DNA of 64,000 nucleotides, from the NCBI GenBank assembly GCA_017302335.1, contig JAFLCT010000001.1:343-64342 (forward strand), given 5' to 3'. Shown here piece after piece: positions 9,240 to 47,288 of this stretch (its first letter is position 1; each line of letters begins with the position of its first letter). The position numbers and the translations under genes are program-made. This DNA is from Caulobacterales bacterium. GTDB lineage: Bacteria; Pseudomonadota; Alphaproteobacteria; Caulobacterales; Caulobacteraceae. The notes beneath the pieces were generated by a model. That model worked only from the letters and a program-made list of their open reading frames with translations. It made no database searches and had not been told where the DNA came from.

Positions 9240-9373
9240 GGCCCGCCCATAGCGGGTCGGGACGGGATCACCCTTGTCATGTGTCAAACCCGGCCTTCAC
9301 CGCCGTCAATGCGACCACGCCTGAGGTCGGCGAGGCGTCAAGACCGGTTTCCGCCTTCGGCGCGAGGCTGCGC

Positions 9374-10549
9374 CTAGTCCCGCAGACCGCCGATGACGCC
9401 CTTTTCCAAGATCACCAGCAGGCCGTCGCTTAAGCGGCCCAGGCCCGCGCGTTCCAGCTTGGGATTGCGGCTGCCGTCGGCCTGGAAGTGGAAGGCGCGC
9501 CGCGCATCCTCGGGCATGGAGCGTTCGGCGTCGTACATACTGGAAAAATTCGAGGCCAGTTCCGGTCCCGGAACGATGGCGAAGTCGTCGCCGCCCAGCG
9601 GCAGAGCGATCAGCATGGCGCTGGAGGCGTCCTCGACCAGGCGATTGTCCGCGACATAGCGCGCCTCACGCTCCTCGGCGAAACGGACCAGGCTCTTACG
9701 CGACCGCACCGCGGCGGCGTAATGCGGCATCAGCGCCTGCAACGCCCCGGCGTGTTGTGACGGCGCGCTGGAGGCGAAGATGTCGGGCGCATCGTCATGG
9801 ACACGGATGCGGCGCGGTTGAATGACGGGTTCGCTCGGCGCGTCCCGTTCCGCTCGCGACAGGGCGCCGCCGAATGTGCGATCCCCGCGCGCCTCATCGT
9901 AGAAGGCGTCGGACCTCTGGGCGGGGGCCGCGCCGCCGTCGGGCGCGCCGCCCTTCAACTGGCGGACTTCCGACTTCAGCTCTTCCACCTGGCGATAGAG
10001 CGCGACCAGGACATCGACCAGGGTCGTGGCCGATCCCCGCGAAAGAGCCTGGGTCTGGTTGATGAAGCCCGCGCGCTGCTGCGCCAGCATTTCGGTATGT
10101 CGACCGTCGGCGAACGCTTCGATCAGGGTCTGCGGGGATCCGACCATGGCCAGCCTTCGTCTCTGCGAGAACATCAGGAAGATCACAACGGCCTGGAGCA
10201 GCAGGATGAGGGCGCCCAGAAGATAGAAAGCCCAGTCAGCGCCTAGCCAAGCCACGATCGGAGACTGGACCTCGACCGTTTCGGATGGGTTAATCTCTTG
10301 ATTGCTTTGCCTAACAATCAAAACCTCAGGTGGAATTCGTCGGTCGACCGAACCCGCCCTCGGCGCCTCTGGTACGGCCGCAGCGCTCAGTTCCGAAGAC
10401 GGGGCCTTGTCCGGCGTGGACGCGACGGCGGGCGGACGCGGCGCGGTGCGGGTCGCCGCCGCGGTCTCCGCTTCCATGAACGAGGCCGCCTGGGCGTGGG
10501 TGGCGACGATGCTCAGCACCACCCAGGCGGCAAGGCCCGCGCCCTTCAT
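9374..10549 (-). CDS. Bitopic membrane protein, function unknown (last gene of the candidate system)
   Basis: Signal peptide (MKGAGLAAWVVLSIVATHAQA/AS), one TM helix (WAFYLLGALILLLQAVVIFLMF), then a coiled-coil-like segment and a roughly 200-aa C-terminal domain. Its ATG overlaps the stop of the 1219-aa gene (ATGA at 10546-10549). Confidence 0.7.
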   Translation of the reverse strand: MKGAGLAAWVVLSIVATHAQAASFMEAETAAATRTAPRPPAVASTPDKAPSSELSAAAVPEAPRAGSVDRRIPPEVLIVRQSNQEINPSETVEVQSPIVAWLGADWAFYLLGALILLLQAVVIFLMFSQRRRLAMVGSPQTLIEAFADGRHTEMLAQQRAGFINQTQALSRGSATTLVDVLVALYRQVEELKSEVRQLKGGAPDGGAAPAQRSDAFYDEARGDRTFGGALSRAERDAPSEPVIQPRRIRVHDDAPDIFASSAPSQHAGALQALMPHYAAAVRSRKSLVRFAEEREARYVADNRLVEDASSAMLIALPLGGDDFAIVPGPELASNFSSMYDAERSMPEDARRAFHFQADGSRNPKLERAGLGRLSDGLLVILEKGVIGGLRD

Positions 10550-13500
10550 TGGGTGGCGCCTTGCGTTCGACGCTCTCGCCGACTGAGACCCGAACTGGGC
10601 GCGCCGACGGACAGGCGGTTGTTGTAGCCCGGCGTCGTCAGGTCGCCGAGCAGATGCCGCAGGGCGCTGACGAACAGGGGTTCCAACGGGACCTCGCCAC
10701 GGGCCTGCGCCTTCTGCACCGAGGCCAAAAGCTTGTTGCGGATATTGGCCGCCGCGCTCTGATCGCCCCGGCCCTGGATATCCAGAGCAAAGGTGCTGTG
10801 TTCGGCCAGGGCCTTCAGGAAGGTGTCGAACTCCGCCAGATCCGGGCGGGACACCGAACCCTGATGCGGGAAATCGATGATGTCCGTCTCGGTCCCCATG
10901 ACGACCGAGCCGATCTGCACCGCCAGGCCCGAGGGTTCGAAATCCTGAGCCGCGCGTTCATTGTCCTCCAGCACGATGGCGGCGTCCCGGATCACCATGC
11001 CGTTCGCCACCTCCAGCTTCGGGATCGGCGACATGAAGACGGACGGACGCCGGGATTGGCCGTCCGCCGCCAGGCTGAACAGCGTCAGAAGGCGGCTGAC
11101 CGGCGTGTCCGCGCGCGCATCGGTGTGATCGCCGTGCATCCGTTTGAACAGGCCCGCGCCGCGACCGCACAGGGCGAAGCCGCACGAGGTCAGCAATTCC
11201 GGCCGCAGATCGCCCTGGGCGATCAGGCCGCGCGCGACCAGGCCCAGATACCAGGCGACCCCGCCCAGGAAGGTGAAGGCCGACCGGGTCAGCGCCTGGC
11301 ATTCCTCGGTGCCCGAATTGTGCAGCCAATGATCGTCCAGCGCCCTTTCCAGCACCGGGCCGCTGAACAGCAGTTCGCCGACATGGGGCAGGCGATCTCG
11401 GCCGATGCCCTCGGACTCGTCGCCCGCCAGGATCTTGGCCCAGGCCCCCAGGTTGAGGCGGTCGCGCAGCAGGGCCGGGTTCTTGATGACGTGGGCGGTG
11501 AAGAAGTCCTGGCCCGCGAGACGCAGCGAACCGCGCCACAGCGGCCGATTGTCGGCCCAGATCGCCACGTCCGTCGTGCCGCCGCCAATGTCCAGGACGA
11601 TGTTCAGATCGCTGGCGACGAAGCTGTGATCGCCCAGACCTCCGCTAAGCACATAGTTGGCCGCCGCCCGGCCTTCGGAGTACAGGCCGCGGATCGGCTG
11701 GGTTTTGAGTTCGGCCATGCGAGCCTCGGCGGCGGGTCGAATAACCCGCAACTCGCGCCTCAACAGCTCCAGGAACTCGCCGCCGTCGGTCCTTTGCGCA
11801 TCGGGCCGCGAGAAGCGCCACTCCAGCAGATCGGGGTCCTTGTTGCGGGCCAGGGCCTCCACCCCGATCATCATCATCATCTGGCGAAGGAAACGACCCG
11901 CCAGGATGCGAGACCGCGGCGACGGGTCCGCCTTCAGACCAAAGTCCGCAGTCGATCCGGTCTCGGAACCATGGTGCCATTTCAGATTGAAGCTGGCGCG
12001 GGTCAGGACGCCCCGGAACTTCTTCTCGTCGTCGTTGTCTTCCTTCAGTTCGAGATCGGGTTGGAAATAGATCAGCGACGAGAACAGGGTGCGGTGGTCA
12101 TCCTCGCTGACGCCCGCGCGCTGGACCACGACGGTCGGCGTCGGCGTGCGTTTTTCCACCAGCGGAAAGAAGATCTCGGCGAACGGCCATCGCAAGCCCC
12201 GCTCCGCCGCCGCATTCCGTGCCGGTTCGCTGGACGTGATTGCTTCCAGCGTGCGCTTTCCGAACACCACTGGCAGCCCGTCCTCGAAACAGGCGACGGT
12301 GTTGGTCGTGCCGAAGTCGACGGCCGCAATGCCCACTTCGTTCGCCGTCTCGATGACCGTGGGCCGCAACAGGGTCATGCCCGCCGGTTCCGCCGACGCG
12401 CCCTGACTTTCCGCATAGGCGAAGAAGATGGCTTCAAAGGCGAAGGGCGAGGATTGAAGCTCCTCGACCACCGCATCGTTGTCGGGACGCACCCGGTTGT
12501 TCCAGGCGGAGGCGAAGCCCTTGCCCGCATAGGGTTCGGCCTCGCTGACGATGTCGTCGTCGGCGCATAGGGGGCGGAAGGCCGCCTCTTTCTGGAGCGG
12601 CGCCAGCGGTTTCAGCATTTCCGCGAACGCCCGCCCCGAGACGGCGAAACGCGCGCGAATGTTGTTCTCCATCTTGGTGGAGTAGTTGAGGCGCGCGAAA
12701 TACCAGTTCCATTTGGAGCTGGCGATGTCGGGCCACACCGCGGCCCCGCCATAGTTCCATTCCGCCTCGTCGACGCGCTCGCCCTGGCCCGGCTCGGGTT
12801 GGTCGGCGTAGACGCGCCGCATGGTGAACTCGGCGGGCTTGACCACCCATCCGTCCGCATGGCCCGGCGCCTGGGAGCGGTGGCCTTCCAGCTTCAGCTT
12901 CAACGAGACCGACTCGCCGGACCCGCCCTCGGATCGGACCTCTATCGCCTCGGCCAGTTCGGTCGGTTTCATCAAGAGCAGGGCGAGCGGGGTGAGCGGC
13001 AACAGGGCGTCGCGCAAACCGGCGGGGTGCCCCGGAACGACGGCCTTCAAGGCCAGCCGAAGGAATTTGCGGGTGAACAGGGCCGACGGACGCGCGACCA
13101 GATAGTTGGCCTCGGCCGCCGCCGTCTGGACCTTCAGCAGCGCGGCCTCGCTGTCCAGCACCTCGGCTAAGGTGGTGGCGCCCCAGACCACGACATCGCG
13201 CGCGGGCTTGCCGCGCGCCTCGGCGATGGCGGGATCGACCAGGATGACGCCCTTGAACGGCGCCGTCTCCGCGTCGAAATCGGCGCGCAGGGCCACACGG
13301 CATTCGGACAGTTCGGCCGGGGCGCCCAGGTCGTCCTGCTCACCCAGTTCGACGCTGGTGCGAACCAGTTCATAAAGGGTCGGCGCCCCGTCGCGCGGCC
13401 CCGCACGCACTTTCAGCCTGTAAGGCGTGTCCGCCTCGCCGCAGGCGTCGGCGAAATCGGTGACCCGATCCCGCAGACTGACATAGACGGGATCGTTGTA

Positions 13501-14205
13501 ATCCGTGGTCAGGGTCTCCAGACCGGCCGCCAGATTGTCGAGATAGGTCTGCAAGGCGCGCCTCTGCACTGCCGACAAGGCGCGATCGCCTTTCAGCTTC
13601 AGCGGGTCGATCCAGTGCGAACCCGCCATCCAGGGCACGACGGGGATCGGCGTCCGATCGCAAGCCCGCCCCGGCGACACCAGGCTGGCGGGACTGAGCG
13701 CGCCGATCAGCCGGGGCCGGTCATAGTTGCGACGATCCTGGCTGTTGCGACCCTTCACTGTCTCGATGTGGATCAGCCAGGGGGTCCGCCAGTCGGCCTG
13801 GGCGGCCGCCGCCTCCTGGGGCAGCGTCTGGGTGGGCAGAAGCGCCAGCAGAATCCGATCCAGACGCGGCCCGTCCGCCTTCAGCCGAACCGGCCGCGCC
13901 GACAGCTTGTAGAAGTCGGCCATCAGGTGTTCGAGCGCGAACAACGCCAACAGGGCGCGCCACTTCTCGACCGTGTCCGTCTCCAGCGGATGGTCGGCGG
14001 TGATCAGGGCGTCGGCGAAGGTTCGCGGCTGCGCCCAGGCGTCCGGCACGGACTTGACGTCCTGAACGCCGCCGCCCGTCTTGACGTCCAGTCGCGCCCC
14101 CATCTCGGCCAGGGTGCCCGGAGACGGCATCCATTCGCCAGCGCGGTCGGGATCGGGAAACGATCCTCGGGCCTTCAACGGAGGGAGGTTGTAGGTCCGG
14201 CTCAT
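10546..14205 (-). CDS. 1219-aa protein with actin/Hsp70-fold ATPase core and a ~620-aa N-terminal region of unknown function
   Basis: Hsp70-type phosphate-1 motif IAAVDFGTTNT (nt 12298-12327) and phosphate-2 motif LDIGGGTTDV (nt 11566-11595). A possible adenosine motif follows (FALCGRGAG). Overlaps both neighbours by ATGA. Confidence 0.75.
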   Translation of the reverse strand: MSRTYNLPPLKARGSFPDPDRAGEWMPSPGTLAEMGARLDVKTGGGVQDVKSVPDAWAQPRTFADALITADHPLETDTVEKWRALLALFALEHLMADFYKLSARPVRLKADGPRLDRILLALLPTQTLPQEAAAAQADWRTPWLIHIETVKGRNSQDRRNYDRPRLIGALSPASLVSPGRACDRTPIPVVPWMAGSHWIDPLKLKGDRALSAVQRRALQTYLDNLAAGLETLTTDYNDPVYVSLRDRVTDFADACGEADTPYRLKVRAGPRDGAPTLYELVRTSVELGEQDDLGAPAELSECRVALRADFDAETAPFKGVILVDPAIAEARGKPARDVVVWGATTLAEVLDSEAALLKVQTAAAEANYLVARPSALFTRKFLRLALKAVVPGHPAGLRDALLPLTPLALLLMKPTELAEAIEVRSEGGSGESVSLKLKLEGHRSQAPGHADGWVVKPAEFTMRRVYADQPEPGQGERVDEAEWNYGGAAVWPDIASSKWNWYFARLNYSTKMENNIRARFAVSGRAFAEMLKPLAPLQKEAAFRPLCADDDIVSEAEPYAGKGFASAWNNRVRPDNDAVVEELQSSPFAFEAIFFAYAESQGASAEPAGMTLLRPTVIETANEVGIAAVDFGTTNTVACFEDGLPVVFGKRTLEAITSSEPARNAAAERGLRWPFAEIFFPLVEKRTPTPTVVVQRAGVSEDDHRTLFSSLIYFQPDLELKEDNDDEKKFRGVLTRASFNLKWHHGSETGSTADFGLKADPSPRSRILAGRFLRQMMMMIGVEALARNKDPDLLEWRFSRPDAQRTDGGEFLELLRRELRVIRPAAEARMAELKTQPIRGLYSEGRAAANYVLSGGLGDHSFVASDLNIVLDIGGGTTDVAIWADNRPLWRGSLRLAGQDFFTAHVIKNPALLRDRLNLGAWAKILAGDESEGIGRDRLPHVGELLFSGPVLERALDDHWLHNSGTEECQALTRSAFTFLGGVAWYLGLVARGLIAQGDLRPELLTSCGFALCGRGAGLFKRMHGDHTDARADTPVSRLLTLFSLAADGQSRRPSVFMSPIPKLEVANGMVIRDAAIVLEDNERAAQDFEPSGLAVQIGSVVMGTETDIIDFPHQGSVSRPDLAEFDTFLKALAEHSTFALDIQGRGDQSAAANIRNKLLASVQKAQARGEVPLEPLFVSALRHLLGDLTTPGYNNRLSVGAPSSGLSRRERRTQGATQ

Positions 14206-15785
14206 TCGGCCCTCTCCTTGGTCGGCACGCGCGCGGCGTGATGCACCATGGCGGCGAGCCGACCAAAGCCCCTGTGCCCGGCGGCGGCATGGGTGTCGCG
14301 CAGGGCGCGGCTGGTCAGCTCGTCATGCAGGGCGGCGGCGCTGCGCGGGGGTTCATTGTGGTCCAGGGGCGACAGCGCGGCGTTGTAGGCCTCGTTCGCA
14401 CGTTGATCCGTCAGGCCGTCGGCGATCTTGATGGGGCGCCTGGGTTGGCGGACATCGGCCTGTTCCTGAACGGCCTCGGTGTTCCAGAGCTGGAATTTCA
14501 GACCTGAATCCTCGGCGTACAGGCGCATCGCGCCGCACCACATCAACAGGCTGTCGAACAGCAGGATCAGGCGTTTCCTCGCGTCATCGGTTTCCGTGAC
14601 CTGGAAGTCGACGTCGCGGGTCAGATCCTGAAGCCAGCCCGCCTTCAGCCGGCCCAGGAGATTGCGGCGACCCAGTTCCGGCTCGACCTGGAACCGCCAC
14701 CACACCGCCGTGCGCAACAACTGGCCCAACCGATCATAGGTGTCCTGATGCCGTGCATGAGCCGCGCCCGGCAGGTCGCCCCAGCCCACGACCCCCGGCT
14801 TGGCGCGGGCGCAGACCTTCACGGCGGTTCCGACCTCTTCGGCGGCTTCAATCGCGGGGGCGTTGAAGAAGTCGATGGCCGCCTGGGCGCCCAGAAGCTC
14901 TGACGGCAGGGGCGGATTGATCTGGTCGTTGTCGCCGGGCGAGTGGTGCGGAAGCTTGAATATCTTGTCGCTGCCCGCGAGGTAGATGTGGTCGAAGACC
15001 GGCTCGCTCTTGAACAACTGGTTGTAGTACTGGAGCGCGGCCTGCGCCTGGGGCATCAGATTGGCGGCCAGCACGACGTTGTCGGTTTCGTCTTCGGGGT
15101 CCGCGAAGCTGAAATAGGGCAGCATCAGCGCCCCGCCCAGCTTCACCTTGTCGCTGTTGCGGGCCTCCTTGCGCAGTGCGTTGATCCGCCGCGCCAGGAT
15201 CGGGAAACCGGCGGCGCCGGTGCCCCCGAAGGCCGAGCCGACCAGGAAGATGCGCACATCGCCGTCGATGGTGGCGTTCTTCATCAGCTCGATCATGCGC
15301 TTCTTGAACTGGCCGTCGCCCAGTTCGAGGCTGGCCAGCATGGCTGCGGCGCCGACGTGGGCGCGGCCGCGGTAGCCCTGGCCCAGCCCCATGTCCTGCT
15401 CCTCCTGGCCCTCCAGGAACAGCAGATCCATCAAGGCTTGCCGGTCGGCGTCCAGACCGCCGCGGTCCAGAATCTGCGCCAGACTGCCCTGCCCGTCGGC
15501 CGAGGGCCGCCAATAGGGATCGTCGCCGAACAACGGCTCGATCTGCACGCGGCCGAGCGTGGTGCGGGTCCAGTCCAACCGGTTATCGGCGCTGAAATCC
15601 CTCCTGAATTTCACCAGATCGTAGAGCAGTTCGCGCGTGCGCGTCAGATTGCCGTTCGCCTTGTCCTGGTCGACCAGGCCGACGACGACCTTGCTGGGTC
15701 CCAGTCCCGCGAAAAAGAGATAGAGCGCGGCCTCGACGACCTTGGCGCCGGTTCCTCCGACGCCGATGAGGACGTTGGTGGTCAT
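14202..15785 (-). CDS. Divergent FtsZ/tubulin-like GTPase (527 aa)
   Basis: ORF 14202..16313 trimmed to the ATG at 15785, which overlaps the stop of the upstream 4-TM gene. The N-terminal IGVGGTGAK (15741-15767) resembles the FtsZ T1 loop. GSAFGGTGAAG (15207-15239) resembles the tubulin/FtsZ GGGTGSG signature. Confidence 0.7.
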   Translation of the reverse strand: MTTNVLIGVGGTGAKVVEAALYLFFAGLGPSKVVVGLVDQDKANGNLTRTRELLYDLVKFRRDFSADNRLDWTRTTLGRVQIEPLFGDDPYWRPSADGQGSLAQILDRGGLDADRQALMDLLFLEGQEEQDMGLGQGYRGRAHVGAAAMLASLELGDGQFKKRMIELMKNATIDGDVRIFLVGSAFGGTGAAGFPILARRINALRKEARNSDKVKLGGALMLPYFSFADPEDETDNVVLAANLMPQAQAALQYYNQLFKSEPVFDHIYLAGSDKIFKLPHHSPGDNDQINPPLPSELLGAQAAIDFFNAPAIEAAEEVGTAVKVCARAKPGVVGWGDLPGAAHARHQDTYDRLGQLLRTAVWWRFQVEPELGRRNLLGRLKAGWLQDLTRDVDFQVTETDDARKRLILLFDSLLMWCGAMRLYAEDSGLKFQLWNTEAVQEQADVRQPRRPIKIADGLTDQRANEAYNAALSPLDHNEPPRSAAALHDELTSRALRDTHAAAGHRGFGRLAAMVHHAARVPTKERAE

Positions 15786-16306
15786 CAGCGCCTCCCCAGG
15801 CGATGCAGCACGGCCGCGCCGGGCACGGCCGCCGCCATGGCCGGGCGGGTCGAAAAGACCGTGCCCAGATAATAGGCCAGGACGACCCCGGCCATCGTCA
15901 GGCCGACCGACAGGGCCAGGGTCGCAGGGTTCTGAAGCGCGGCCTGAAGCGGGCGGCTCCAGAGCATGAACCAGGCCTCGCCGCCCACGGCTGCAAGCAC
16001 CGTGACGAACAGACCGGCCCAGGCGCCGCGATAGGCCTCGGCCTGGCGATCGTTGATCGGATCGGCCCGTACGGTGATCCACACCCAGACCAGGGACATC
16101 AACGCACTGAGCGCGAAGGCGATTGACGCCAGGGGCAGCAGCAGTTGTCGCAGATCCCCGAGCGCCAGTTCGATCTGCAATCGACTGGACGCTGTCTCCA
16201 TGAAGCCCGAGTTCAGCGACTCTTCCCGGCCGCCGATCAGCCACAGACCGATCGCCACGACGCCCCAGAACAGAAGATGCACCAGCACTGTTCGCAAGAA
16301 ACGCAT
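15785..16306 (-). CDS. Four-TM membrane protein, function unknown
   Basis: 173 aa with four hydrophobic helices. Its frame differs from the spurious N-terminal extension of the 703-aa track ORF. Stop/start overlap with the tubulin-like gene. Confidence 0.65.
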   Translation of the reverse strand: MRFLRTVLVHLLFWGVVAIGLWLIGGREESLNSGFMETASSRLQIELALGDLRQLLLPLASIAFALSALMSLVWVWITVRADPINDRQAEAYRGAWAGLFVTVLAAVGGEAWFMLWSRPLQAALQNPATLALSVGLTMAGVVLAYYLGTVFSTRPAMAAAVPGAAVLHRLGRR

Positions 16307-16348
16307 ACGCCATCCCCTCTCAAAATGATCAAACCCCGGCCGCCGCCC

Positions 16349-17809
16349 CTAGCCTTGCGTGCGTACGATGAAGGCGAAGCCCGCCCCCGCGCCTGGCTCA
16401 CCGCGCGCGGACAAGGCCCGGGCGTGGGCGCTTTCCAGGGCCTCGGCGAAGCGGGCCAACCCCAGGGTCGGCGCCAGGCCGTCGTCGCGATCCAGGGCGG
16501 CGCGTTCGGACTCGACCGACCAGTCGAAGGTCCAGTCGGCGCTCCGCATCCAGGCCGCGGCAGAACCCGCGCCTCGGCCCGGCGCCAGCGGAACCTCGCC
16601 CACGATCAGCAGCGGCTCACTCGGCAGCCCGCGGGACTCCGCCCTTGGATCGAAGCGGAAGACCACGTCGCCCGCCTCATCCTGGCTCCAGTCGCCGTTC
16701 AGCCGACCGAGCAGGCGCCAGGCGCCCGGCGCACAGGCCCGCCCCCCGGTCTTGACCCAGACCGAAGCCGTCGCAGCGCCCACATCCAGCGGCCGCGCGA
16801 TCTCGACGTCTCTGCCCTTCTCGCGCCAAATCAGGCGAAGGGCGGGGGCGCTGGCGCCCGAGCCGCCATCACGTTTCAACGTGTATTGCGCGATCGGCCC
16901 GACATCGACGCGCGGCAGGATCGCGGCCTCTTCCATGCCGACGCGGAACAGCGGGCCTTCCAGCTTCGCCGGTCGAGGCGTGACCGCCTGCTTCGGATCG
17001 AGGTTGAACAGGGTGCGGCGTACGCGGCCCTCGTTGAAGGCGGTTTTCAGATAGTTGGCCGCCCTCAGTTCGCGATCCAGCGCGGCGAGGCGATCGGGCG
17101 GCCCGGCGGCGACGAGATAGAGCGGTCGACGCCGCGCCTCCACATTCCTGCGACCGCTGGGAAGGCTGTCCAGGATTCGCCCCTGATAGGGCAGGTTGAA
17201 ACCATAGACGGCGACGCCACGGCCAGAGGCCATGATCCGGCGCAACGGCTCGCCCAGGGCGGCGGCGTCGCTGACGGCCTTCTGCCGATTGTCCATCCAC
17301 AGGTCGCTGATCAGGATGGTCAGCCGGTTCGGCGCCTCGTCCGCCATGCCTTCCAGCGCCGCGTCGATGTGGCTGGCCTTGGCGTCATAGGCCTGCGCCC
17401 TCATGAGGCGATCCAGATCGGCGGCGGGCGCCTCGGTCATCGCCTCGCCCTCGCCGAACAGCTTGTATCCGGTCTGGTCCGCGCCCCACGGCGGGTATCT
17501 CAGCAGGTCGGGTATGAAGCTTTCCCGCGCCCCGCCCGCACGCAGATAGCCCTGCATACTGGCCGACCGATCGAGATAGACGACCGCCCCGCTCCCGCCC
17601 GCCGCGACGACGTCGGCGTGCACGTCGACTGGTATCCAGGGTCTGGCCGCAGCGGGAAAACACCCCCGGGCGCCCTGAACGCCGTCCGCGACCGACGGCG
17701 GGCCGCCATCAGTCTTCGCCGGGGTCCAGCGGTCGCATCCGACGACCCCTTGAGCGGCGCCGAGACAGACGGCTCCCACGACCAGTTTCTTCAATAGGCC
17801 TGCCCCCAT
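16349..17809 (-). CDS. vWA-domain lipoprotein
   Basis: Lipobox LGAAQGVVGC and MIDAS-type DxSxS (VVYLDRSASM, nt 17558-17572), followed by TILISDLW. An alternative TTG start at 17794 (MKKLVVGAV...) is preceded by GGGGCAGG. Confidence 0.7.
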   Translation of the reverse strand: MGAGLLKKLVVGAVCLGAAQGVVGCDRWTPAKTDGGPPSVADGVQGARGCFPAAARPWIPVDVHADVVAAGGSGAVVYLDRSASMQGYLRAGGARESFIPDLLRYPPWGADQTGYKLFGEGEAMTEAPAADLDRLMRAQAYDAKASHIDAALEGMADEAPNRLTILISDLWMDNRQKAVSDAAALGEPLRRIMASGRGVAVYGFNLPYQGRILDSLPSGRRNVEARRRPLYLVAAGPPDRLAALDRELRAANYLKTAFNEGRVRRTLFNLDPKQAVTPRPAKLEGPLFRVGMEEAAILPRVDVGPIAQYTLKRDGGSGASAPALRLIWREKGRDVEIARPLDVGAATASVWVKTGGRACAPGAWRLLGRLNGDWSQDEAGDVVFRFDPRAESRGLPSEPLLIVGEVPLAPGRGAGSAAAWMRSADWTFDWSVESERAALDRDDGLAPTLGLARFAEALESAHARALSARGEPGAGAGFAFIVRTQG

Positions 17810-17839
17810 AGGTTGAACTATGGAACATCGTTCAACCTA
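17809..17839. promoter_or_regulatory. Perfect 10-bp inverted repeat TAGGTTGAAC-N11-GTTCAACCTA
   Basis: Read directly from the sequence. It lies in the AT-richer 64-bp divergent intergenic region and abuts the annotated ATG of the vWA gene. Confidence 0.5.
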
Positions 17840-17873
17840 ATGTAAAGGTGAAGACCGAGTTAATTCAGTCGGC

Positions 17874-18458
17874 TTGGGGGACTGGGGTTTGGCGGCGTTC
17901 GAGACCATCATGTTTGATGACGGCGGGACCGTGGTCGAACTCCAGACCGCTCGCTCGGTGCGGCGCGCGGTGGAGAACGGCGTCCTCAAGATCGACACCC
18001 TGGTCACGCTGATCGCCCTAGACGGATCGACCCGCCGACTACGCGCCGCCGAGATCGAGGCGCTTCGTCCATTGTTCGGCCAGGCCGAAGTCGTGGACGA
18101 AAAGGTCTCGCCCGTCGTCGATCCGCCGATCATCGAGGCCGCCAGTGATGAAATCTCGGCCGAGACCGACCCTGTCGTCGCGCCCCGGGCGACGCAGATC
18201 ACGGCCGTGCAGGCCGCCTTCTCATCGGCGACGACCGGGACGAGCGCCCCCCCGTCCATCCCCCCAGCGTATCGAACCGCGGCCTCGGCGAAACCGGGAG
18301 GCTGTGGGCTGGTCGCCTGGGGTTGGACCCTTCTGATCGGCGGGCTTCTTCTCAGCGGCGCCTACCCGCCCGCGAGTCTGGCCTTCGTCATCGGCCTGGC
18401 GCTTCTGCTGTTCACCGTCGTGCGGGGCATGGCCCGCCGCATAGGCGGAGGCGCGTGA
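17874..18458 (+). CDS. Membrane protein with N-terminal GYF_2-like domain (paralogue 1)
   Basis: The N-terminal ~60 aa align with the next gene (ARSVRRAVENGVLKIDTLVTLI... versus ARSLRRAIENGLLTRETLVTLI...). Two C-terminal TM helices. TTG start, so the start is uncertain. Confidence 0.55.
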   Translation: MGDWGLAAFETIMFDDGGTVVELQTARSVRRAVENGVLKIDTLVTLIALDGSTRRLRAAEIEALRPLFGQAEVVDEKVSPVVDPPIIEAASDEISAETDPVVAPRATQITAVQAAFSSATTGTSAPPSIPPAYRTAASAKPGGCGLVAWGWTLLIGGLLLSGAYPPASLAFVIGLALLLFTVVRGMARRIGGGA

Positions 18459-18463
18459 CGGCG

Positions 18464-19897
18464 ATGAGCGGTCTCGATTTCAGCCTGCTGTTCTCCGAGG
18501 GCGGCGGCGCCCATCAGTTGAGTTCCGCCCGGTCGCTTCGCCGCGCCATCGAGAACGGACTGTTGACCCGCGAAACACTGGTCACCCTGATCCGGGACGA
18601 AGAAAGCCGAACCCTGCGCGCGGGCGCCGCGCCCGAACTCGCCCCCCTGTTCGATGAGATCATCGGCGCCCTGTCGGTCCGAGAGTCTGAGACGGAGACG
18701 CAGACACAGGCCGCGGACGCCGAAATCTCCGAGGCGTCGCACGCTGAAACCGCCGCCGCCGAAAGCCCCTCCGACACCGCGAGTGCGCTTGAACCTGAGG
18801 CGGTCTCGGCGACGCCCCCGCCCACCTCCAAGAGCGTGGAGGGCGACGGCCGTCTCGAACCGGAAACGGTCGATCGCGCCGCATCGAACAGGGACCCCGA
18901 GTTCTTCGACCTGGATCAACCGCCCGCCCCGGTCGTCTGGGGCGGCGTCGCGGCCATCCTGCTGGCGATCCTCGTCCTGCTTGTGAAATGCGCAGGCGTC
19001 GGACCCGCGCCCTCCCCTGTGAAACCGCCACCCCCCGTGGTCGTGACCCTCTATGTCACGCGCCAGACCAATGTCCGCCCCGATGTCCGGGCGCGCGAGA
19101 TCGGGACCGTGGAGCGTGGCGAGGTCCTGCGTGGCGTAATCCAGGGCGGCGGAGACGGCGACCGATGGCTGCGGGTGTCCGAAGGGCCGCATCAGGGCCG
19201 ATGGGTCTGGGCGGGCAATCTGTCGCCTAGTCCGCGCCCCGCATTGATCGAACGTCTCGACGGCGCCCATCAGGTCCTGAGACCTGGCGTGCTGCGGCGG
19301 GAAGGTCAGGACGGGCGGTTCGTCGAGCACGGCGTTCAGATCGGCGACCGGCTGACCCTGCTGGCCTATGTCGCCGACGATCAGGTCGAGGTTCAGATGG
19401 AAGGCGGCGGCGTCGGCTATCTTCCGGCCCAGGTCTTCCGCCCCGACGAACAGGCCGAGGCCCAGCGCCAGGCCGAACGGGAGGCGGCCCGCCAGGCCCG
19501 AGACGCCGCCAGGGTTGCGGCGGAGGAAAACCGCCGCCGCGCCAACGAAGCCGCCAATGCGGCGGCGGATGCGGCGGCGATGGATGTTCCGCGCACGATC
19601 TCCCAGGCCGACGCCAACTGGCGGCTGCGGATCACCCCGCGGTTGCCCAGCCGTTTGAACCTGTCCGACGGCTCCACGCTGCGCGCGAGCGTCGCCTGCA
19701 TCGTCAGAGACGACGGCGCCATGAGCGATTGCCGCCTGGTGTCGGAACAGCCGCGCAACTCGGGCTACGGCGCCGCCGCTCTGGAGGCGGCCCGTTCCAG
19801 CCGCCACTACCCCGAGGATCGAAGCCGCCGTCCCGTCGGAGGCCGCCAAGTCACCCTGAATTACGAAGCCGACGTCGGCGGGCTGATCAGCCCCTGA
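18464..19897 (+). CDS. Membrane protein: GYF_2-like N-domain, TM helix, SH3-like domain, coiled coil, TonB-C-like domain (paralogue 2)
   Basis: Start trimmed to the ATG at 18464 (MSGLDFSLLF). TM helix VVWGGVAAILLAILVLLV. The C-terminus (ASVACIVRDDGAMSDCRLVSEQPRNSGYGAAALEAA) resembles a TonB C-terminal domain. Confidence 0.6.
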   Translation: MSGLDFSLLFSEGGGAHQLSSARSLRRAIENGLLTRETLVTLIRDEESRTLRAGAAPELAPLFDEIIGALSVRESETETQTQAADAEISEASHAETAAAESPSDTASALEPEAVSATPPPTSKSVEGDGRLEPETVDRAASNRDPEFFDLDQPPAPVVWGGVAAILLAILVLLVKCAGVGPAPSPVKPPPPVVVTLYVTRQTNVRPDVRAREIGTVERGEVLRGVIQGGGDGDRWLRVSEGPHQGRWVWAGNLSPSPRPALIERLDGAHQVLRPGVLRREGQDGRFVEHGVQIGDRLTLLAYVADDQVEVQMEGGGVGYLPAQVFRPDEQAEAQRQAEREAARQARDAARVAAEENRRRANEAANAAADAAAMDVPRTISQADANWRLRITPRLPSRLNLSDGSTLRASVACIVRDDGAMSDCRLVSEQPRNSGYGAAALEAARSSRHYPEDRSRRPVGGRQVTLNYEADVGGLISP

Positions 19898-19900
19898 ATG

Positions 19901-19916
19901 CTGTCGGCCCCGACAG
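19901..19916 (+). terminator. Short GC hairpin after the stop codon (CTGTCG-GCCC-CGACAG)
   Basis: Lies 4 nt after the TGA at 19895-19897. There is no clear U-run. Confidence 0.3.
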
Positions 19917-19970
19917 TCACCCACTCAGTATACATTTGTTTTGCAATGGTTATCTGAAAGGAAAAAGGAA

Positions 19971-20480
19971 ATGACGAAGACGGTGGGCCTAGTCCTGGCG
20001 ATGACCGGGGCATTGGCGATGTCGGCGTGCGCGACCACGGGTCAGGGCGGCGGCGGCGGCAGTTCGCTGGATCGCGCCGTGGCCCGATGCGCCGGCACGG
20101 TGCTGTTGACCGCCGCCCTCGGCGCCGTCATCGGCAACAATACGGGCAGCGGCGGCGCTGGCAGGGGCGCGGCCATCGGCGCCGCGGGCGGCGTCGCCCT
20201 GTGCGCCATCCTGCAACAGGCCCAGCGCGACCAGGCCGTCATCCTGGAAAGCGAACAGATCGCCGCGACGCGGGGCGAGAACCTGGAAAGCAAGGTGCGG
20301 GGCGAAAGCGGCAAGGAGGCCACGCTCAGACACGTCGTCGAAACCGCCCCGGAACAGACCGCGCAGCGACGCTGTCGCTATGTCTCCACCGTGGTGTCGT
20401 ACGGCCAGGGCGAAGCCCCCACCGGCAAACAGCTCTATTGCGAAAGCCTTACAGGCGCCTGGGAACGCATCGACGCCTAG
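19971..20480 (+). CDS. Glycine-zipper lipoprotein
   Basis: The ATG at 19971 is preceded by AAAGGAAAAAGGAA. Lipobox LAMSAC. Gly-rich zipper segment (GAVIGNNTGSGGAGRGAAIGAAGG). Confidence 0.7.
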   Translation: MTKTVGLVLAMTGALAMSACATTGQGGGGGSSLDRAVARCAGTVLLTAALGAVIGNNTGSGGAGRGAAIGAAGGVALCAILQQAQRDQAVILESEQIAATRGENLESKVRGESGKEATLRHVVETAPEQTAQRRCRYVSTVVSYGQGEAPTGKQLYCESLTGAWERIDA

Positions 20481-20485
20481 CGGCT

Positions 20486-20509
20486 CAAAGGGCGCCACGA
20501 CCCTTTGAC
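20486..20509 (+). terminator. Hairpin TCAAAGGG-N8-CCCTTTGA
   Basis: Lies 6 nt after the stop of the glycine-zipper gene. No U-run. Confidence 0.3.
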
Positions 20510-20633
20510 GAGGGGGCGGGCCAAGCTCACCAACACCTGCCGTCGCGATCGAGGGTTGCGACAGGAAAAGTGACGCCCCAATGGAACATAATTCCGTTCT
20601 ACGAAATACGCTGTCATCACGACGGGGGCATTC

Positions 20634-47164: not shown

Positions 47165-47254
47165 CAATGCCTCCTCCCATAGGGCACAGGACGCCGGGAT
47201 TCGCCCCGGTCTGTCATTTTTTGGAAGCGCCCCCCCTTGGCGGCCGCCCCGACT

Positions 47255-47268
47255 TGACACCGGTGTCA
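47255..47268. promoter_or_regulatory. LacI-type operator, perfect palindrome TGACACCGGTGTCA
   Basis: Lies in the divergent promoter between the TonB-dependent receptor gene and the pectate lyase gene. Confidence 0.7.
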
Positions 47269-47288
47269 TCATCGAGCGGAATGCTTTC

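What the first reader, a model, noticed from the sequence alone, without database searches (positions are those of the whole stretch)
14202..15785. Highly divergent FtsZ/tubulin-superfamily GTPase outside any cell-division context
Seen in the sequence: MTTNVLIGVGGTGAKVVEAAL at the extreme N-terminus mirrors the FtsZ IGVGGGGxNAV nucleotide-binding loop. FLVGSAFGGTGAAGFPILARRI mirrors the tubulin signature GGGTG(S/T)G followed by a helix. The spacing between the two loops is longer than in canonical FtsZ, and the C-terminal ~300 aa have no recognisable FtsZ C-domain. This suggests a GTPase-domain-only tubulin relative carrying a novel appendage. No ftsA, ftsQ or mur genes are nearby, so this is not the division FtsZ.
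Basis: partly seen in the sequence, partly recalled or inferred. Interest (0 to 1): 0.72.

Follow-up and report, generated by a model that had tools for sequence, protein, structure and literature searches.

The report
Tubulin-like GTPase paired with actin-like ATPase
The gene encodes a real but very divergent relative of tubulin/FtsZ from an already catalogued, never-tested family (Pfam Tubulin_2), and it sits in a widely conserved four-gene module with a giant actin/HSP70-like ATPase, a four-helix membrane protein and an exported lipoprotein that has apparently not been described as a unit.

Summary
Window 14202-15785, minus strand, encodes a 527-aa protein with both quoted motifs.

**Family.** It passes Pfam Tubulin_2 (30.4 bits, cut-off 27), as do all 35 aligned homologs. 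A confident AlphaFold model (pLDDT 88) gives a Rossmann-type domain. Its Foldseek hits are weak and mostly tubulin, TubZ, FtsZ and PhuZ, mixed with short-chain dehydrogenases. Six conserved loops line up in order with FtsZ T1-T6. There is no H7 helix and no FtsZ or tubulin C-domain. This is the "FtsZ-like 1" lineage described by computation in 2010, so the superfamily call is right but not new.

**What is new.** This is a compact (~480-560 aa) subfamily with about 2,100 clusters at 50% identity. In all 78 genome loci where the contig allows, its gene is followed at once by a ~1,000-1,270-aa protein with an actin/HSP70-type ATPase domain. It is nearly always preceded by a 4-TM protein and usually by a lipoprotein with a MIDAS-like motif. 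A natural fusion of the tubulin-like and actin-like proteins exists. Lineage-specific extras are ZorAB-like motors, HSP70, TerD and peptidoglycan-binding proteins.

**Function.** No division genes lie in the window. The most likely role is an envelope-linked, nucleotide-driven conflict or stress system. This is inferred, not shown.

The parts
14202..15785 (-). Gene C: 527-aa tubulin/FtsZ-like NTPase (the finding). The N-terminal Rossmann-type domain (~1-280) carries these loops:
- T1: GVGGTGAK, residues 8-15
- T2-like: DQDxxNGN, 39-46
- T3-like: GYRGRAHVG, 137-145
- T4: FGGTGAAGFP, 186-195
- T5-like: LMLPYFSF, 220-227
- S6/T6-like: YLAGSD, 268-273
- possible T7-like: QINPPLPSE, 288-296

The mostly helical C-terminal half (~310-527) has no detectable relatives.
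   Evidence: Pfam Tubulin_2 30.4 bits vs cut-off 27, with 35/35 homologs matching. AF2 model pLDDT 87.9, pTM 0.92, with secondary structure S1-H1-S2-H2...S4-H4-S5-H5-S6. Foldseek hits to tubulin, TubZ, FtsZ and PhuZ. Motif conservation at 90% or more across 83 sequences.
10546..14205 (-). Gene D: 1,219-aa protein. The N-terminal ~620 aa are conserved but unassigned (motifs PDxWAQxRxFAxA and WRxLLAxxxL). The C-terminal ~600 aa form an actin/HSP70/sugar-kinase (ASKHA) ATPase domain with three motifs:
- phosphate-1: VDFGTTNT, ~629-636
- phosphate-2: LDIGGGTTD, ~871-879
- adenosine-type: CGRGAG, ~1013-1018

Its start overlaps the stop of C (ATGA).
   Evidence: The motifs are invariant in 5 orthologs. 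The profile hits MreB (7bvy, E 1.8e-4), exopolyphosphatase, DnaK, FtsA and Hsc70 among PDB sequences. Orthologs from other phyla hit MreB_Mbl (one at 31.9 bits, above the cut-off of 27), FtsA, Ppx-GppA, EutA and DDR. D follows C directly in 78/80 loci, and the other two are cut by contig ends. A natural C+D fusion, P0222, exists. Junction sequence.
15785..16306 (-). Gene B: 173-aa integral membrane protein with about four predicted TM helices. Its stop overlaps the start of C (ATGA).
   Evidence: Translation. Hydropathy-based TM prediction. A 145-220-aa ORF with typically 3-5 predicted TM helices lies directly upstream of the tubulin-like gene in nearly all of the 80 related loci. HMM matches are found in alphaproteobacteria and Microcystis. 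No Pfam, NCBIfam or PADLOC match.
16349..17809 (-). Gene A: 486-aa predicted exported lipoprotein (signal peptide plus lipobox VVGC, residues 22-25). It is followed by an alpha/beta domain with a MIDAS-like D-x-[ST]-x-S motif (YLDRSASM, 78-85) and an invariant (S/T)DL motif (168-170). It is a probable but unproven vWA-like domain, with a beta-rich C-terminal half.
   Evidence: D80, D169 and L170 are invariant and S84 is at least 90% conserved in 16 orthologs from 6 phyla, most of which have a lipobox-like Cys. The AF2 model is poor (pLDDT 45.6; 60-79 over residues ~75-260). Foldseek gives no significant hit, but the best is the MDN1 MIDAS domain (E 0.07, prob 0.85), and VWF-A, factor B and integrin I-like domains recur in the list. 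No Pfam or PDB-sequence match. A is upstream of B-C-D in most loci.
9374..10549 (-). Gene E: 391-aa protein with an N-terminal signal-like segment, one strong TM helix (~105-128) and a C-terminal domain. It is a lineage-specific accessory gene found in Sphingomonadales and Caulobacterales. Its start overlaps the stop of D (ATGA).
   Evidence: Translation. TM prediction. HMM matches only in sphingomonad and caulobacter loci, always directly after D. Junction sequence.
17817..17846 (-). The only sigma-70-like promoter match in 9000-18600 (TTTACA-18-CATAGT). It lies just upstream of gene A, inside the ~100-bp divergent intergenic region.
   Evidence: One site was found against 0.7 expected by chance, so it is weak evidence on its own. 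Its position fits an A-B-C-D-E transcription unit.

Best explanation
**What gene C is.** It encodes a compact (~530 aa) member of the 'FtsZ-like 1' / Pfam Tubulin_2 branch of the tubulin/FtsZ superfamily. It keeps the nucleotide-binding Rossmann domain with T1-T5/6-type loops. It has an ~80-residue insertion between H2 and T3, lacks helix H7 and the FtsZ/tubulin C-domain, and ends in a family-specific helical domain.

**The module.** C is not a division protein. It is the third gene of a translationally coupled operon:
- A: an exported MIDAS/vWA-like lipoprotein
- B: a 4-TM protein
- C: the tubulin-like NTPase
- D: a ~1,200-aa protein ending in an actin/HSP70-type ATPase
- E: a bitopic membrane protein

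The A-B-C-D core is conserved across Alphaproteobacteria, Bacteroidota, Cyanobacteria, Acidobacteriota, Negativicutes/Clostridia, Poribacteria and others.

**Proposed mechanism (inferred).** A reports a periplasmic or envelope cue through the membrane subunit B (and E). C and D form a cytoplasmic complex. Nucleotide-dependent assembly or switching of this complex (GTP on C, ATP on D) builds or remodels a membrane-attached structure. The system most likely belongs to the envelope-associated, NTP-thresholded 'conflict' systems, that is, anti-phage or stress responses.

**Shown versus inferred.** Shown: family membership, motif conservation, operon structure, C-D coupling including a natural fusion, and the accessory gene sets. 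Inferred: nucleotide specificity, polymerisation, the A-to-B-to-C/D signalling order, and the biological role.
For: **Identity.**
- Pfam Tubulin_2 is above threshold and matches 35/35 homologs, with recurrent sub-threshold PF00091 hits at T4.
- The AF2 model has pLDDT 87.9.
- About two thirds of the top 50 PDB Foldseek hits are tubulin, TubZ or FtsZ with prob 0.96-1.00.
- The top viral hits are phage FtsZ, tubulin and PhuZ.
- G10-G13, D39, D41, N44-N46, E129, G137, R139, G145, S184-P195 and P223-F227 are at least 90% conserved across phyla.

**Operon.**
- ATGA overlaps at the B/C, C/D and D/E junctions.
- The order A-B-C-D is kept in 80 loci from 8 or more phyla.
- A C+D fusion protein, P0222, sits in an A-B-(CD) locus.

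**D is an ASKHA ATPase**.

**A is exported and MIDAS-like**.

**Envelope and conflict theme.**
- ZorA/ZorB-like pairs lie downstream in 9 loci (PADLOC ZorB 6e-20, ZorA 2e-7).
- OmpA, PG_binding_1/PEGA and SH3b proteins are neighbours.
- A divergent TerD gene is present in 7 sphingomonad loci.
- Other neighbours include RHS toxin, toxin-antitoxin, HEPN, methylase and integrase genes.
- A caspase + trypsin operon is divergent from A in the window.
- The distribution is patchy: 516 or more of 185,579 species genomes.

**Precedent.** FtsZl1-vWA-OmpA operons and tubulin-vWA and HSP70 themes in GTPase-centred conflict systems.
Against: **Against the identity.**
- No direct sequence-profile link to canonical FtsZ. 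hhalign aligns only T1 at prob 2-3%. The profile against PDB sequences gives FtsZ/CetZ E 0.28 only.
- Foldseek E-values are marginal (about 1e-3 to 1e-4), TM-scores are 0.2-0.34, and SDR enzymes rank first.
- There is no H7/T7, so canonical head-to-tail, polymerisation-coupled GTPase activity may not apply.

**Against the defence role.**
- There are no PADLOC hits for A-E.
- In the window and in L005 the cluster sits in ordinary chromosomal context (molybdopterin genes, malate synthase, TonB receptor) with uniform GC.
- There is no recognisable toxic effector domain in A-E.

**Against the vWA assignment of A.** It rests on motifs and a low-confidence model only.
Confidence: 0.6

Rival explanations
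1. The identity is the same (Tubulin_2/FtsZl1 tubulin-like NTPase in the A-B-C-D module), but the module is a housekeeping or accessory envelope machine and not an immune one. It would be a membrane-remodelling, vesicle-forming or force-transducing apparatus. A tubulin-like and an actin-like NTPase would build a cytoplasmic scaffold coupled to periplasmic and peptidoglycan-bound parts. This is comparable in logic to MotAB/TolQR-type motors working with MreB and a small GTPase in gliding machines.
For: Makarova & Koonin proposed membrane remodelling for FtsZl1 operons. Partners include MotA/MotB-like, OmpA, PG-binding, SH3b and TonB_C-like proteins. The window context is chromosomal and housekeeping, and a moaE neighbourhood is shared with L005. 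There is no obvious toxin or nuclease effector, and no PADLOC hit for A-E.
Against: The distribution is very patchy, at about 0.3% of species and only a few species per genus, which is unusual for a housekeeping machine. Conflict-type genes recur nearby: TerD, RHS, TA/HEPN, caspase-trypsin and integrases. The accessory sets are swapped between lineages, as is typical of defence systems.
Confidence: 0.27
2. C is not a tubulin homolog at all. It is a dinucleotide-binding Rossmann enzyme (SDR-like) or another Rossmann NTPase such as Get3/ArsA-like, and the glycine loops are convergent.
For: The best Foldseek E-values are to SDR reductases (3sx2, 1.5e-4), and TRC40/Get3 also appears. HMM and hhalign comparisons with FtsZ are not significant.
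Against: The Pfam Tubulin_2 match is above the curated threshold in the query and in 35/35 homologs, and no SDR family appears even at E<=1. There are two glycine-rich loops, one after strand 1 and one after strand 4, and the second (GGTGAAG) sits at the N-terminus of a helix exactly as tubulin T4 does. The SDR signatures TGxxxGxG, NNAG and YxxxK are absent, and there is no Walker A motif. Most of the top 50 PDB hits and the top viral hits are tubulin-family.
Confidence: 0.06
3. C is a TubZ/PhuZ-type DNA-positioning tubulin of a plasmid, prophage or integrated element.
For: TubZ and phage tubulins are among the structural matches.
Against: No tubR-like DNA-binding partner, centromere repeats, or phage or plasmid genes are nearby. 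The context is chromosomal with uniform GC and no tRNA genes. The obligate partners are membrane and periplasmic proteins plus an ASKHA giant. The TubZ-type C-terminal domain and tail are missing.
Confidence: 0.03
4. C is an auxiliary or alternative cell-division FtsZ paralog.
For: Superfamily membership only.
Against: There are no dcw genes in the window. There is no FtsZ_C domain, no C-terminal FtsA/ZipA-binding peptide and no H7/T7. The phylogenetic distribution is sporadic.
Confidence: 0.02

Closest known systems
FtsZ-like 1 (FtsZl1) family = Pfam PF13809 Tubulin_2 (Makarova & Koonin 2010, PMC2875224; Santana-Molina et al. 2023, PMC9871819)
   Same: The tubulin/FtsZ nucleotide-binding domain is divergent, with family-specific inserts between T1 and T4. 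T6-H7 is not identifiable and there is no FtsZ C-domain. Instead there is an alpha-helical C-terminal region. The gene is not in the division cluster. It lies in operons with (probable) vWA proteins and membrane proteins, and in related loci with OmpA/MotB-type proteins. The Pfam model matches above threshold.
   Different: All 2010 FtsZl1 proteins listed are ~900-1,200 aa with a long central coiled coil. This subfamily is 480-560 aa with no such region. Its constant partner is a ~1,000-1,270-aa ASKHA-domain protein, sometimes fused to it, plus a 4-TM protein. This pairing does not appear in the neighbourhood tables I searched. The nearest case there is amb2958 with a 1,626-aa DnaK-like gene three genes away. 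No sphingomonad or caulobacter members are in the 2010 lists.
GAP1-N2-type DO-GTPase 'conflict' systems with tubulin + vWA, or HSP70, components (Kaur, Burroughs, Iyer & Aravind 2020, PMC7159879)
   Same: Tubulin-domain proteins with a helical C-terminal domain occur together with extracytoplasmic vWA proteins, TM components and peptidoglycan-binding modules (SH3b, PEGA). HSP70-type ATPases appear as alternative assembly-forming components. The systems are mobile, patchily distributed and placed close to the membrane.
   Different: The two defining components are not found here. There is no TRAFAC DO-GTPase: no Walker A motif occurs in any of the 11 proteins of the two divergent operons. No GAP1 or FNIII protein is recognisable. 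In that work the tubulin theme and the HSP70 theme are described as non-overlapping and restricted mainly to Firmicutes and Actinobacteria. Here a tubulin-like and an ASKHA protein are always adjacent, mostly in Gram-negative phyla.
Canonical FtsZ / tubulin / TubZ / PhuZ
   Same: The nucleotide-binding domain is Rossmann-type, with a glycine-rich T1 after strand 1 and the signature T4 loop (GGTGAAG vs GGGTG[ST]G) at the N-terminus of H4. T2, T3 and T5-like loops follow in the same order. These proteins are weak structural matches.
   Different: There is an ~80-residue insertion before T3, no H7 core helix, no canonical T7 NxDxx[DE] loop and no C-terminal (GTPase-activating) domain. The T3 loop carries Arg residues (GYRGRxHxG). 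There is no division, plasmid or phage context.
Zorya anti-phage system motor ZorA/ZorB (MotA/MotB-like)
   Same: In 9 of 80 related loci, a MotA/ExbB-type protein with a long helical tail and a MotB/OmpA-type protein follow the module. They match PADLOC ZorA (2e-7) and ZorB (6e-20) models.
   Different: This pair is not present in the window's own operon. The ZorB match may reflect generic MotB similarity, and much of the ZorA match lies in the coiled-coil tail. ZorC/ZorD-type effectors are absent, and A-D have no PADLOC match.
FtsZ-like 2 (FtsZl2; PFL_1302 type, Proteobacteria)
   Same: Similar size: a tubulin-like N-domain plus ~300 aa of unassigned C-terminal region, found in Proteobacteria.
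   Different: FtsZl2 is reported to keep T6, H7 and T7, to have a mixed alpha/beta C-terminal region and to have no conserved gene neighbours. The present family lacks H7, has a helical C-terminal half and sits in a strictly conserved operon. It matches Tubulin_2, the FtsZl1 model.

Membership tests
Tubulin/FtsZ superfamily | Rossmann-type nucleotide-binding domain (S1-S6 with H1-H5) that superposes on tubulin/FtsZ | tested here: inconclusive
   The AF2 model is confident (pLDDT 87.9, pTM 0.92) and has the expected strand/helix order. Most top Foldseek hits are tubulin, TubZ or FtsZ (prob 0.96-1.0), and the top viral hits are phage FtsZ, tubulin and PhuZ. However, E-values are only ~1e-3, TM-scores are 0.2-0.34, and SDR Rossmann enzymes score slightly better.
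Tubulin/FtsZ superfamily | Glycine-rich T1 loop after strand S1 and signature T4 loop GGGTG(S/T)G at the N-terminus of H4 | tested here: met
   GVGGTGAK (residues 8-15) follows strand 3-9. FGGTGAAG (186-193) follows strand 177-184 and leads into helix 189-207. Both are at least 90% conserved in 83 sequences. The T4 variant is GGTGAAG.
Tubulin/FtsZ superfamily | Core helix H7 followed by a T7 'synergy' loop whose acidic residue activates GTP hydrolysis in the neighbouring subunit | tested here: inconclusive
   There is no long helix between S6 (266-270) and residue 294 in the model. A conserved G284...Q288-x-N290...E296 segment (at least 90% conserved) might be a T7 analogue.
Tubulin/FtsZ superfamily | C-terminal domain of FtsZ_C / Tubulin_C type | tested here: not met
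   No such Pfam match appears even at E<=1 in 35 homologs. The model's C-terminal half is mainly long helices.
Tubulin/FtsZ superfamily | GTP binding and hydrolysis, and nucleotide-dependent polymerisation | not testable with these tools
   Needs biochemistry and EM. Only conservation of the loop residues is shown.
Pfam PF13809 Tubulin_2 / FtsZl1 | Match to the family HMM above the curated gathering score | tested here: met
   30.4 bits against a cut-off of 27, E 3.2e-7, residues 144-237. 35/35 aligned homologs match, best E 3.2e-10. Most database homologs carry a precomputed PF13809 hit, and some are named 'tubulin-like domain-containing protein' by NCBI.
Pfam PF13809 Tubulin_2 / FtsZl1 | Typical architecture: N-terminal FtsZ-like domain, then an extended coiled coil, then an alpha-helical C-domain (~900-1,200 aa) | tested here: not met
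   The protein is 527 aa, and family members are 480-560 aa. There is no extended coiled coil, only two ~30-residue helices. The 2010 members are 900-1,200 aa.
Pfam PF13809 Tubulin_2 / FtsZl1 | Operon with a vWA-domain protein (intact MIDAS DxSxS) | tested here: inconclusive
   Gene A has a conserved D-x-[ST]-x-S and an invariant (S/T)DL motif. It has no Pfam or PDB-sequence match. The AF2 model has pLDDT 45.6, and the best Foldseek hit, the MDN1 MIDAS domain, has E 0.07.
DO-GTPase / GAP1-N2 conflict systems (Kaur et al. 2020) | One or two TRAFAC-clade DO-GTPases with Walker A/B motifs | tested here: not met
   No Walker A motif occurs in A-E or in the six divergent genes. No GTPase Pfam hit was found.
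DO-GTPase / GAP1-N2 conflict systems (Kaur et al. 2020) | GAP1 protein (GAP1-N2/M/C domains) and an FNIII-repeat protein | not testable with these tools
   No models of the GAP1 domains are in the libraries used. No FNIII Pfam hit was found in the proteins scanned. The N-terminal 620 aa of D remain unassigned.
Division FtsZ | dcw-cluster context (ftsA, ftsQ, mur genes) and a C-terminal FtsA/ZipA-binding peptide | tested here: not met
   tblastn with 15 E. coli dcw proteins found no hit in the window. The flanking genes are unrelated to division.
TubZ/PhuZ segregation tubulins | Plasmid or phage context with an adaptor (TubR) and a centromere | tested here: not met
   The context is chromosomal with uniform GC and no tRNA, phage or plasmid genes within +/-10 kb. 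The conserved partners are membrane proteins and an ASKHA protein.
ASKHA (actin/HSP70/sugar kinase) ATPases (for partner D) | Phosphate-1, phosphate-2 and adenosine motifs in order | tested here: met
   VDFGTTNT, LDIGGGTTD and CGRGAG are invariant in orthologs. The profile hits MreB, PPX, DnaK, FtsA and Hsc70. One ortholog passes the MreB_Mbl threshold. No 3-D model was made, because D is longer than 1,200 aa.

The most novel reading that the evidence does not exclude
The A-B-C-D module would be a previously unrecognised, phylum-spanning class of envelope-triggered immune or stress machine. In it, a tubulin-like GTPase and a giant actin/HSP70-like ATPase form an obligate complex, and are fused in some organisms. 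A periplasmic MIDAS/vWA lipoprotein would control the complex through a 4-TM subunit. In some lineages ZorAB-like ion-driven motors would sense for it or power it. This would be the first case of the two cytoskeletal NTPase superfamilies working as one dedicated non-division, non-segregation device in bacteria.
Probability: 0.3. Interest if true: 0.8.

Novelty: new variant of a known kind. Interest (0 to 1): 0.55.

Why it matters
The Tubulin_2/FtsZl1 branch is among the most divergent parts of the tubulin/FtsZ superfamily, and my literature searches found no experimental study of any member.

This compact subfamily gives a tractable entry point:
- The protein is small (~530 aa) and has a confident predicted structure.
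- It has a fixed partner set. The tubulin-like protein is always next to a large actin/HSP70-type ATPase and is sometimes fused to it.
- It occurs in culturable hosts such as Sphingomonas, Novosphingobium, Brevundimonas, Dyadobacter and Microcystis.

If the pair proves to be a nucleotide-gated assembly controlled from the periplasm, two things would follow. It would show how a tubulin fold can work without the H7/T7/C-domain polymerisation machinery. It would also add a new type of envelope-linked conflict or remodelling system, possibly connected mechanistically to Zorya-type motors.

If it proves ordinary, the result still refines the annotation of about 2,000 protein clusters currently labelled 'hypothetical'.

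Tried and rejected
- **Plus-strand reading of the stated coordinates.** Full of stops; the gene is on the minus strand.
- **The 703-aa ORF from the ORF listing.** Rejected as an upstream in-frame extension that overlaps gene B.
- **Direct sequence links to solved tubulins.** phmmer and a 35-sequence profile against PDB sequences gave nothing significant; FtsZ/CetZ 4b46 scored E 0.28 at T4 only.
- **hhalign against E. coli FtsZ.** Using the 35- and 83-sequence alignments, it aligned only T1 (prob 2-3%). The large insert and the single-sequence template defeat it.
- **PADLOC and NCBIfam.** No hit for any of A-E.
- **Deeper alignment for protein A.** Two of the three big homology searches returned only 5 sequences. 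The resulting shallow model is poor and its fold search is not significant.
- **D could not be modelled** because it is longer than 1,200 aa.
- **P-loop GTPase (DO-GTPase).** Searched for in both divergent operons; none found.
- **GYF_2 domain.** The N-terminal motif shared by the 182-aa and 477-aa divergent proteins was not confirmed as GYF_2 by Pfam.
- **Synteny.** Apart from the recurrent 477-aa neighbour family (below), only moaE is shared with one locus.
- **Literature searches.** Queries on tubulin + vWA + HSP70 + TerD + Zorya + anti-phage found no description of this module.

Full report
**1. The observation**

The coordinates are right, but the gene is on the minus strand. The plus-strand translation is full of stops. 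Translating 14202-15785 (-) gives a 527-aa protein that begins MTTNVLIGVGGTGAKVVEAAL and carries FLVGSAFGGTGAAGFPILARRI at residues 179-200. The ORF listing shows a 703-aa ORF only because the frame stays open upstream. The real start is the ATG at 15785. It is preceded by GGGGAGG and overlaps the stop of the upstream 173-aa gene as ATGA. The two glycine loops are 177 residues apart, about twice the distance in E. coli FtsZ. No FtsZ_C or Tubulin_C domain is detectable. tblastn with all 15 E. coli dcw-cluster proteins finds nothing in the 64-kb window. The rest of the window is ordinary chromosome: NnrS, class II ribonucleotide reductase, molybdopterin genes, malate synthase G, a TonB-dependent receptor and alpha-amylase. 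GC is uniform at ~68% and there are no tRNA genes.

**2. Is it a tubulin relative?**

*Sequence.* Pfam Tubulin_2 (PF13809) matches at 30.4 bits against a curated cut-off of 27 (E 3.2e-7), over residues 144-237. All 35 aligned homologs match this model (best E 3.2e-10). In 22 of the 35 there is also a sub-threshold match to the classical Tubulin/FtsZ GTPase model PF00091 at the T4 loop. No dehydrogenase family appears even at E<=1.

*Structure.* An AlphaFold2 model built on that alignment is confident (pLDDT 87.9, pTM 0.92). It shows strand 3-9, helix 10-25, strand 32-38, helix 45-63, an insert, helices 134-168, strand 177-184, helix 189-207, strand 214-221, helix 240-260 and strand 266-270. 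Foldseek against the PDB is weak and mixed. SDR reductases rank first (3sx2, E 1.5e-4, TM 0.19/0.32). They are followed by a long run of tubulins, B. thuringiensis TubZ (2xka) and M. tuberculosis FtsZ (1rq7) at E ~1e-3 to 8e-3, probability 0.96-1.00, TM 0.2-0.34. About two thirds of the top 50 are tubulin-family. Against predicted viral structures, the top hits are a phage FtsZ (6.3e-4), a phage tubulin (1.3e-3) and PhuZ at rank 5.

*Negative results.* Direct profile tests against canonical FtsZ fail. A profile against PDB sequences gives only FtsZ/CetZ 4b46 at E 0.28. hhalign against E. coli FtsZ aligns only the T1 loop.

*Loop correspondence.* By inspection, six conserved segments fall in the FtsZ order and in the right structural places:

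| Segment in C | Residues | FtsZ counterpart |
|---|---|---|
| GVGGTGAK | 8-15 | T1 |
| VDQDxxNGN | 38-46 | the NTD motif after S2 |
| GYRGRAHVG | 137-145 | GLGAGANPEVG, T3 |
| GSAFGGTGAAGFP | 183-195 | T4 |
| LMLPYFSF | 220-227 | VTKPFNFEG, T5 |
| YLAGSD | 268-273 | TIPNDK, T6 |

All of these except the last are at least 90% conserved in 83 sequences from many phyla; only Y268 and G271 of YLAGSD reach that level. Two glycine-rich loops, one after strand 1 and one after strand 4, are what separate tubulin/FtsZ from dinucleotide-binding Rossmann enzymes. The SDR signatures and a Walker A motif are both absent.

*Conclusion on homology.* I take tubulin-superfamily homology as likely (~0.85), but not proven by the structural test alone. 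Helix H7 and a canonical T7 loop are missing. A conserved G284...Q288-x-N290...E296 segment is the only candidate analogue. The C-terminal ~250 residues are mainly long helices with no detectable relatives.

**3. It belongs to a known, uncharacterised lineage**

Makarova & Koonin (2010, PMC2875224) defined 'FtsZ-like 1' proteins. Their features are inserts between T1 and T4, no identifiable T6-H7, no FtsZ C-domain, and operons with vWA, OmpA-type and membrane proteins. They interpreted these as a membrane-remodelling system. Santana-Molina et al. (2023, PMC9871819) equate this group with Pfam Tubulin_2. Kaur et al. (2020, PMC7159879) placed tubulin + vWA genes, and separately HSP70 genes, in DO-GTPase/GAP1-N2 'conflict' systems of Firmicutes and Actinobacteria. 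My full-text searches found no experimental work on any member and no description of the arrangement below. Some homologs are already named 'tubulin-like domain-containing protein' by NCBI.

**4. What is different here: a compact subfamily in a fixed module**

The 2010 FtsZl1 proteins are 900-1,200 aa with a long coiled coil. This protein and its relatives are 480-560 aa. An exhaustive HMM search finds 2,095 cluster representatives at E<=1e-3 and 975 at E<=1e-30, and almost all are full-length matches of that size. The 80 best loci come from:
- Sphingomonadales, Caulobacterales and Hyphomonadaceae
- Pelagibacteraceae
- Acetobacteraceae and Rhodospirillales
- Acidobacteriota
- Bacteroidota and Ignavibacteria
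- Cyanobacteria
- Negativicutes and Clostridia
- Poribacteria

I built HMMs of the five window proteins and scanned six-frame ORFs of all loci. In 78 of 80 loci the tubulin-like gene (C) is followed directly by a ~1,000-1,270-aa gene (D). The other two loci are cut by contig ends. A 145-220-aa ORF with typically 3-5 predicted TM helices (B) lies immediately upstream of C in nearly all loci. A ~420-500-aa gene (A) lies upstream of that in most. In the window, B/C, C/D and D/E overlap as ATGA. The only promoter-like match in the region sits just upstream of A (weak evidence).

**5. The partners**

*D (10546-14205, 1,219 aa).* It carries invariant phosphate-1 (VDFGTTNT), phosphate-2 (LDIGGGTTD) and adenosine-type (CGRGAG) motifs. 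Its profile hits MreB (E 1.8e-4), exopolyphosphatase, DnaK, FtsA and Hsc70 among PDB sequences. Orthologs from other phyla hit MreB_Mbl (one above threshold), FtsA, Ppx-GppA, EutA and DDR. D therefore has an actin/HSP70-type (ASKHA) ATPase domain. Its N-terminal ~620 aa are conserved but unassigned. One database protein, P0222 (1,683 aa), is a natural C+D fusion encoded in an A-B-(CD) locus. This argues that C and D act together physically.

*A (16349-17809).* It has a signal peptide with a lipobox (VVGC), as do most orthologs. It also has a conserved D-x-[ST]-x-S motif and an invariant (S/T)DL motif, as in MIDAS sites of vWA domains. It matches no Pfam family or PDB sequence. Only five database homologs could be collected. 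Its AlphaFold model is poor (pLDDT 45.6). The fold search is not significant, although the MDN1 MIDAS domain ranks first (E 0.07, prob 0.85) and VWF-A, factor B and integrin I-like domains recur. 'vWA-like' is therefore probable, not shown.

*B and E.* B has about four TM helices. E has a signal-like segment and one TM helix and is restricted to sphingomonads and caulobacters.

*No P-loop GTPase.* No Walker A motif exists in either of the two divergent operons, so the defining DO-GTPase of the Kaur et al. systems is absent.

**6. Lineage-specific accessories**

- In 9 loci (Negativicutes, Clostridia, Acidobacteriota, Poribacteria, Bacteroidaceae), a MotA/ExbB-type protein with a long helical tail and a MotB/OmpA-type protein follow the module. 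They match PADLOC ZorA (2e-7) and ZorB (6e-20) models. This is probably the same 'B7 + COG1360' pair seen next to long FtsZl1 genes in cyanobacteria in 2010.
- In 15 loci (Bacteroidota, Ignavibacteria and one Janthinobacterium MAG), a genuine HSP70 nucleotide-binding-domain protein (PF00012, E 3.5e-76) follows D directly.
- In 7 sphingomonad loci, a TerD-domain gene is divergent from A.
- Other neighbours carry PG_binding_1/PEGA, SH3b, TonB_C-like or DUF805 modules.
- Several loci lie among RHS toxin, HEPN/NTase, ParE/BrnT, methylase and integrase genes.
- In the window itself, a six-gene operon divergent from A ends in a caspase and a trypsin. Its 477-aa TM protein recurs near the module in other alphaproteobacteria.

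**7. How it most likely works**

*Shown.* C is a Tubulin_2-family protein with conserved nucleotide-loop residues. D is an ASKHA protein with conserved ATP-binding motifs. C and D are always adjacent and sometimes fused. A is predicted to be exported, B is an integral membrane protein and C and D lack predicted signal sequences. Envelope and peptidoglycan-binding accessories recur.

*Inferred.* A periplasmic lipoprotein with a metal-dependent binding site reports an envelope event through B (and E, or ZorAB-like motors elsewhere). The signal reaches a cytoplasmic C-D complex. GTP- and ATP-dependent assembly or switching of that complex produces a membrane-attached structure or threshold signal.

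*Role.* Several things favour a conflict or defence-type role (~0.45 of the total probability): the patchy distribution, the swapped accessory sets and the conflict-type neighbours. Several things keep a membrane-remodelling or mechanical role alive (~0.27): the absence of any PADLOC match or obvious toxic effector, and the housekeeping chromosomal context in the window. Non-tubulin Rossmann enzyme, TubZ-like segregation and division-paralog readings are unlikely, for the reasons given under rivals.

**8. Verdict**

The protein falls in a family known since 2010 and already modelled in Pfam. What seems not to have been described is the compact subfamily and its conserved A-B-C-D module, which couples a tubulin-like and an actin/HSP70-like NTPase. 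The natural fusion and the ZorAB-like, HSP70 and TerD accessory sets add to this. I rate it a new variant of a known kind, of moderate interest. The interest lies mainly in giving a tractable system for a never-tested branch of the tubulin superfamily.

Noticed in passing
window 17910-24792 (+): A six-gene operon is divergent from gene A. It encodes:
- a 182-aa protein (two C-terminal TM helices)
- a 477-aa single-TM protein (weak TonB_C)
- a 169-aa Gly-zipper lipoprotein-like protein
- a 487-aa lipoprotein-like protein
- a caspase (Peptidase_C14; also matches the PADLOC 'caspase' model)
- a trypsin-family protease

The 182-aa and 477-aa proteins share an N-terminal motif (ARSxRRAxENGxL...TLVTLI). 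This may be a separate protease-based conflict system or an accessory of the tubulin module.
   Followed up: partly
window 18464-19897 (+); L005 4806-6218; L015 17201-18754; L027: The 477-aa TM protein has homologs (470-518 aa) close to the tubulin module in at least 8 other alphaproteobacterial loci, in variable position and orientation. The L015 member carries bacterial SH3 domains (E 3e-13).
   Followed up: partly
P0222; locus L090 10001-15052: A natural 1,683-aa fusion of the tubulin-like and ASKHA proteins. The locus lies next to SrfB/Virul_Fac-type genes and an island with integrases, HEPN/nucleotidyltransferase, ParE and BrnT toxins and DNA methylases.
   Followed up: partly
L033 1369-14104: A Rhodospirillales MAG carries two tubulin-like + ASKHA gene pairs in tandem, as C-D-A-C-D.
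   Followed up: no
L062 15034-17579 and 8 other loci (L040, L043, L049, L069, L072, L074, L079, L083): ZorA-like (MotA/ExbB domain plus long helical tail) and ZorB-like (MotB/OmpA) genes lie 0.5-1.2 kb downstream of the module, with one unassigned 290-390-aa gene in between.
   Followed up: partly
L059 14150-15697 and 14 similar loci: A ~515-aa protein with a genuine HSP70 nucleotide-binding domain (no substrate-binding domain detected) follows gene D directly. A ~700-aa unassigned protein follows it.
   Followed up: partly
window 16349-17809 (-): Public gene calls for gene A start 62 codons downstream of the ATG at 17809, giving 424 aa instead of 486 aa. This removes the signal peptide, the lipobox and a Cys (C50) that is invariant in 16 orthologs.
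   Followed up: yes
window 7452-9287 (-) and downstream: A PLP-dependent decarboxylase (tyrosine/DABA-decarboxylase-like, far below the equivalog cut-offs) lies directly after gene E. It is followed by thiS-moaE-moaB-moaC-moeA. Only moaE is also found near the module in L005.
   Followed up: partly
window 44186-47272 (-): A local GC dip (0.62 against ~0.68) coincides with a 1,028-aa TonB-dependent receptor gene.
   Followed up: partly
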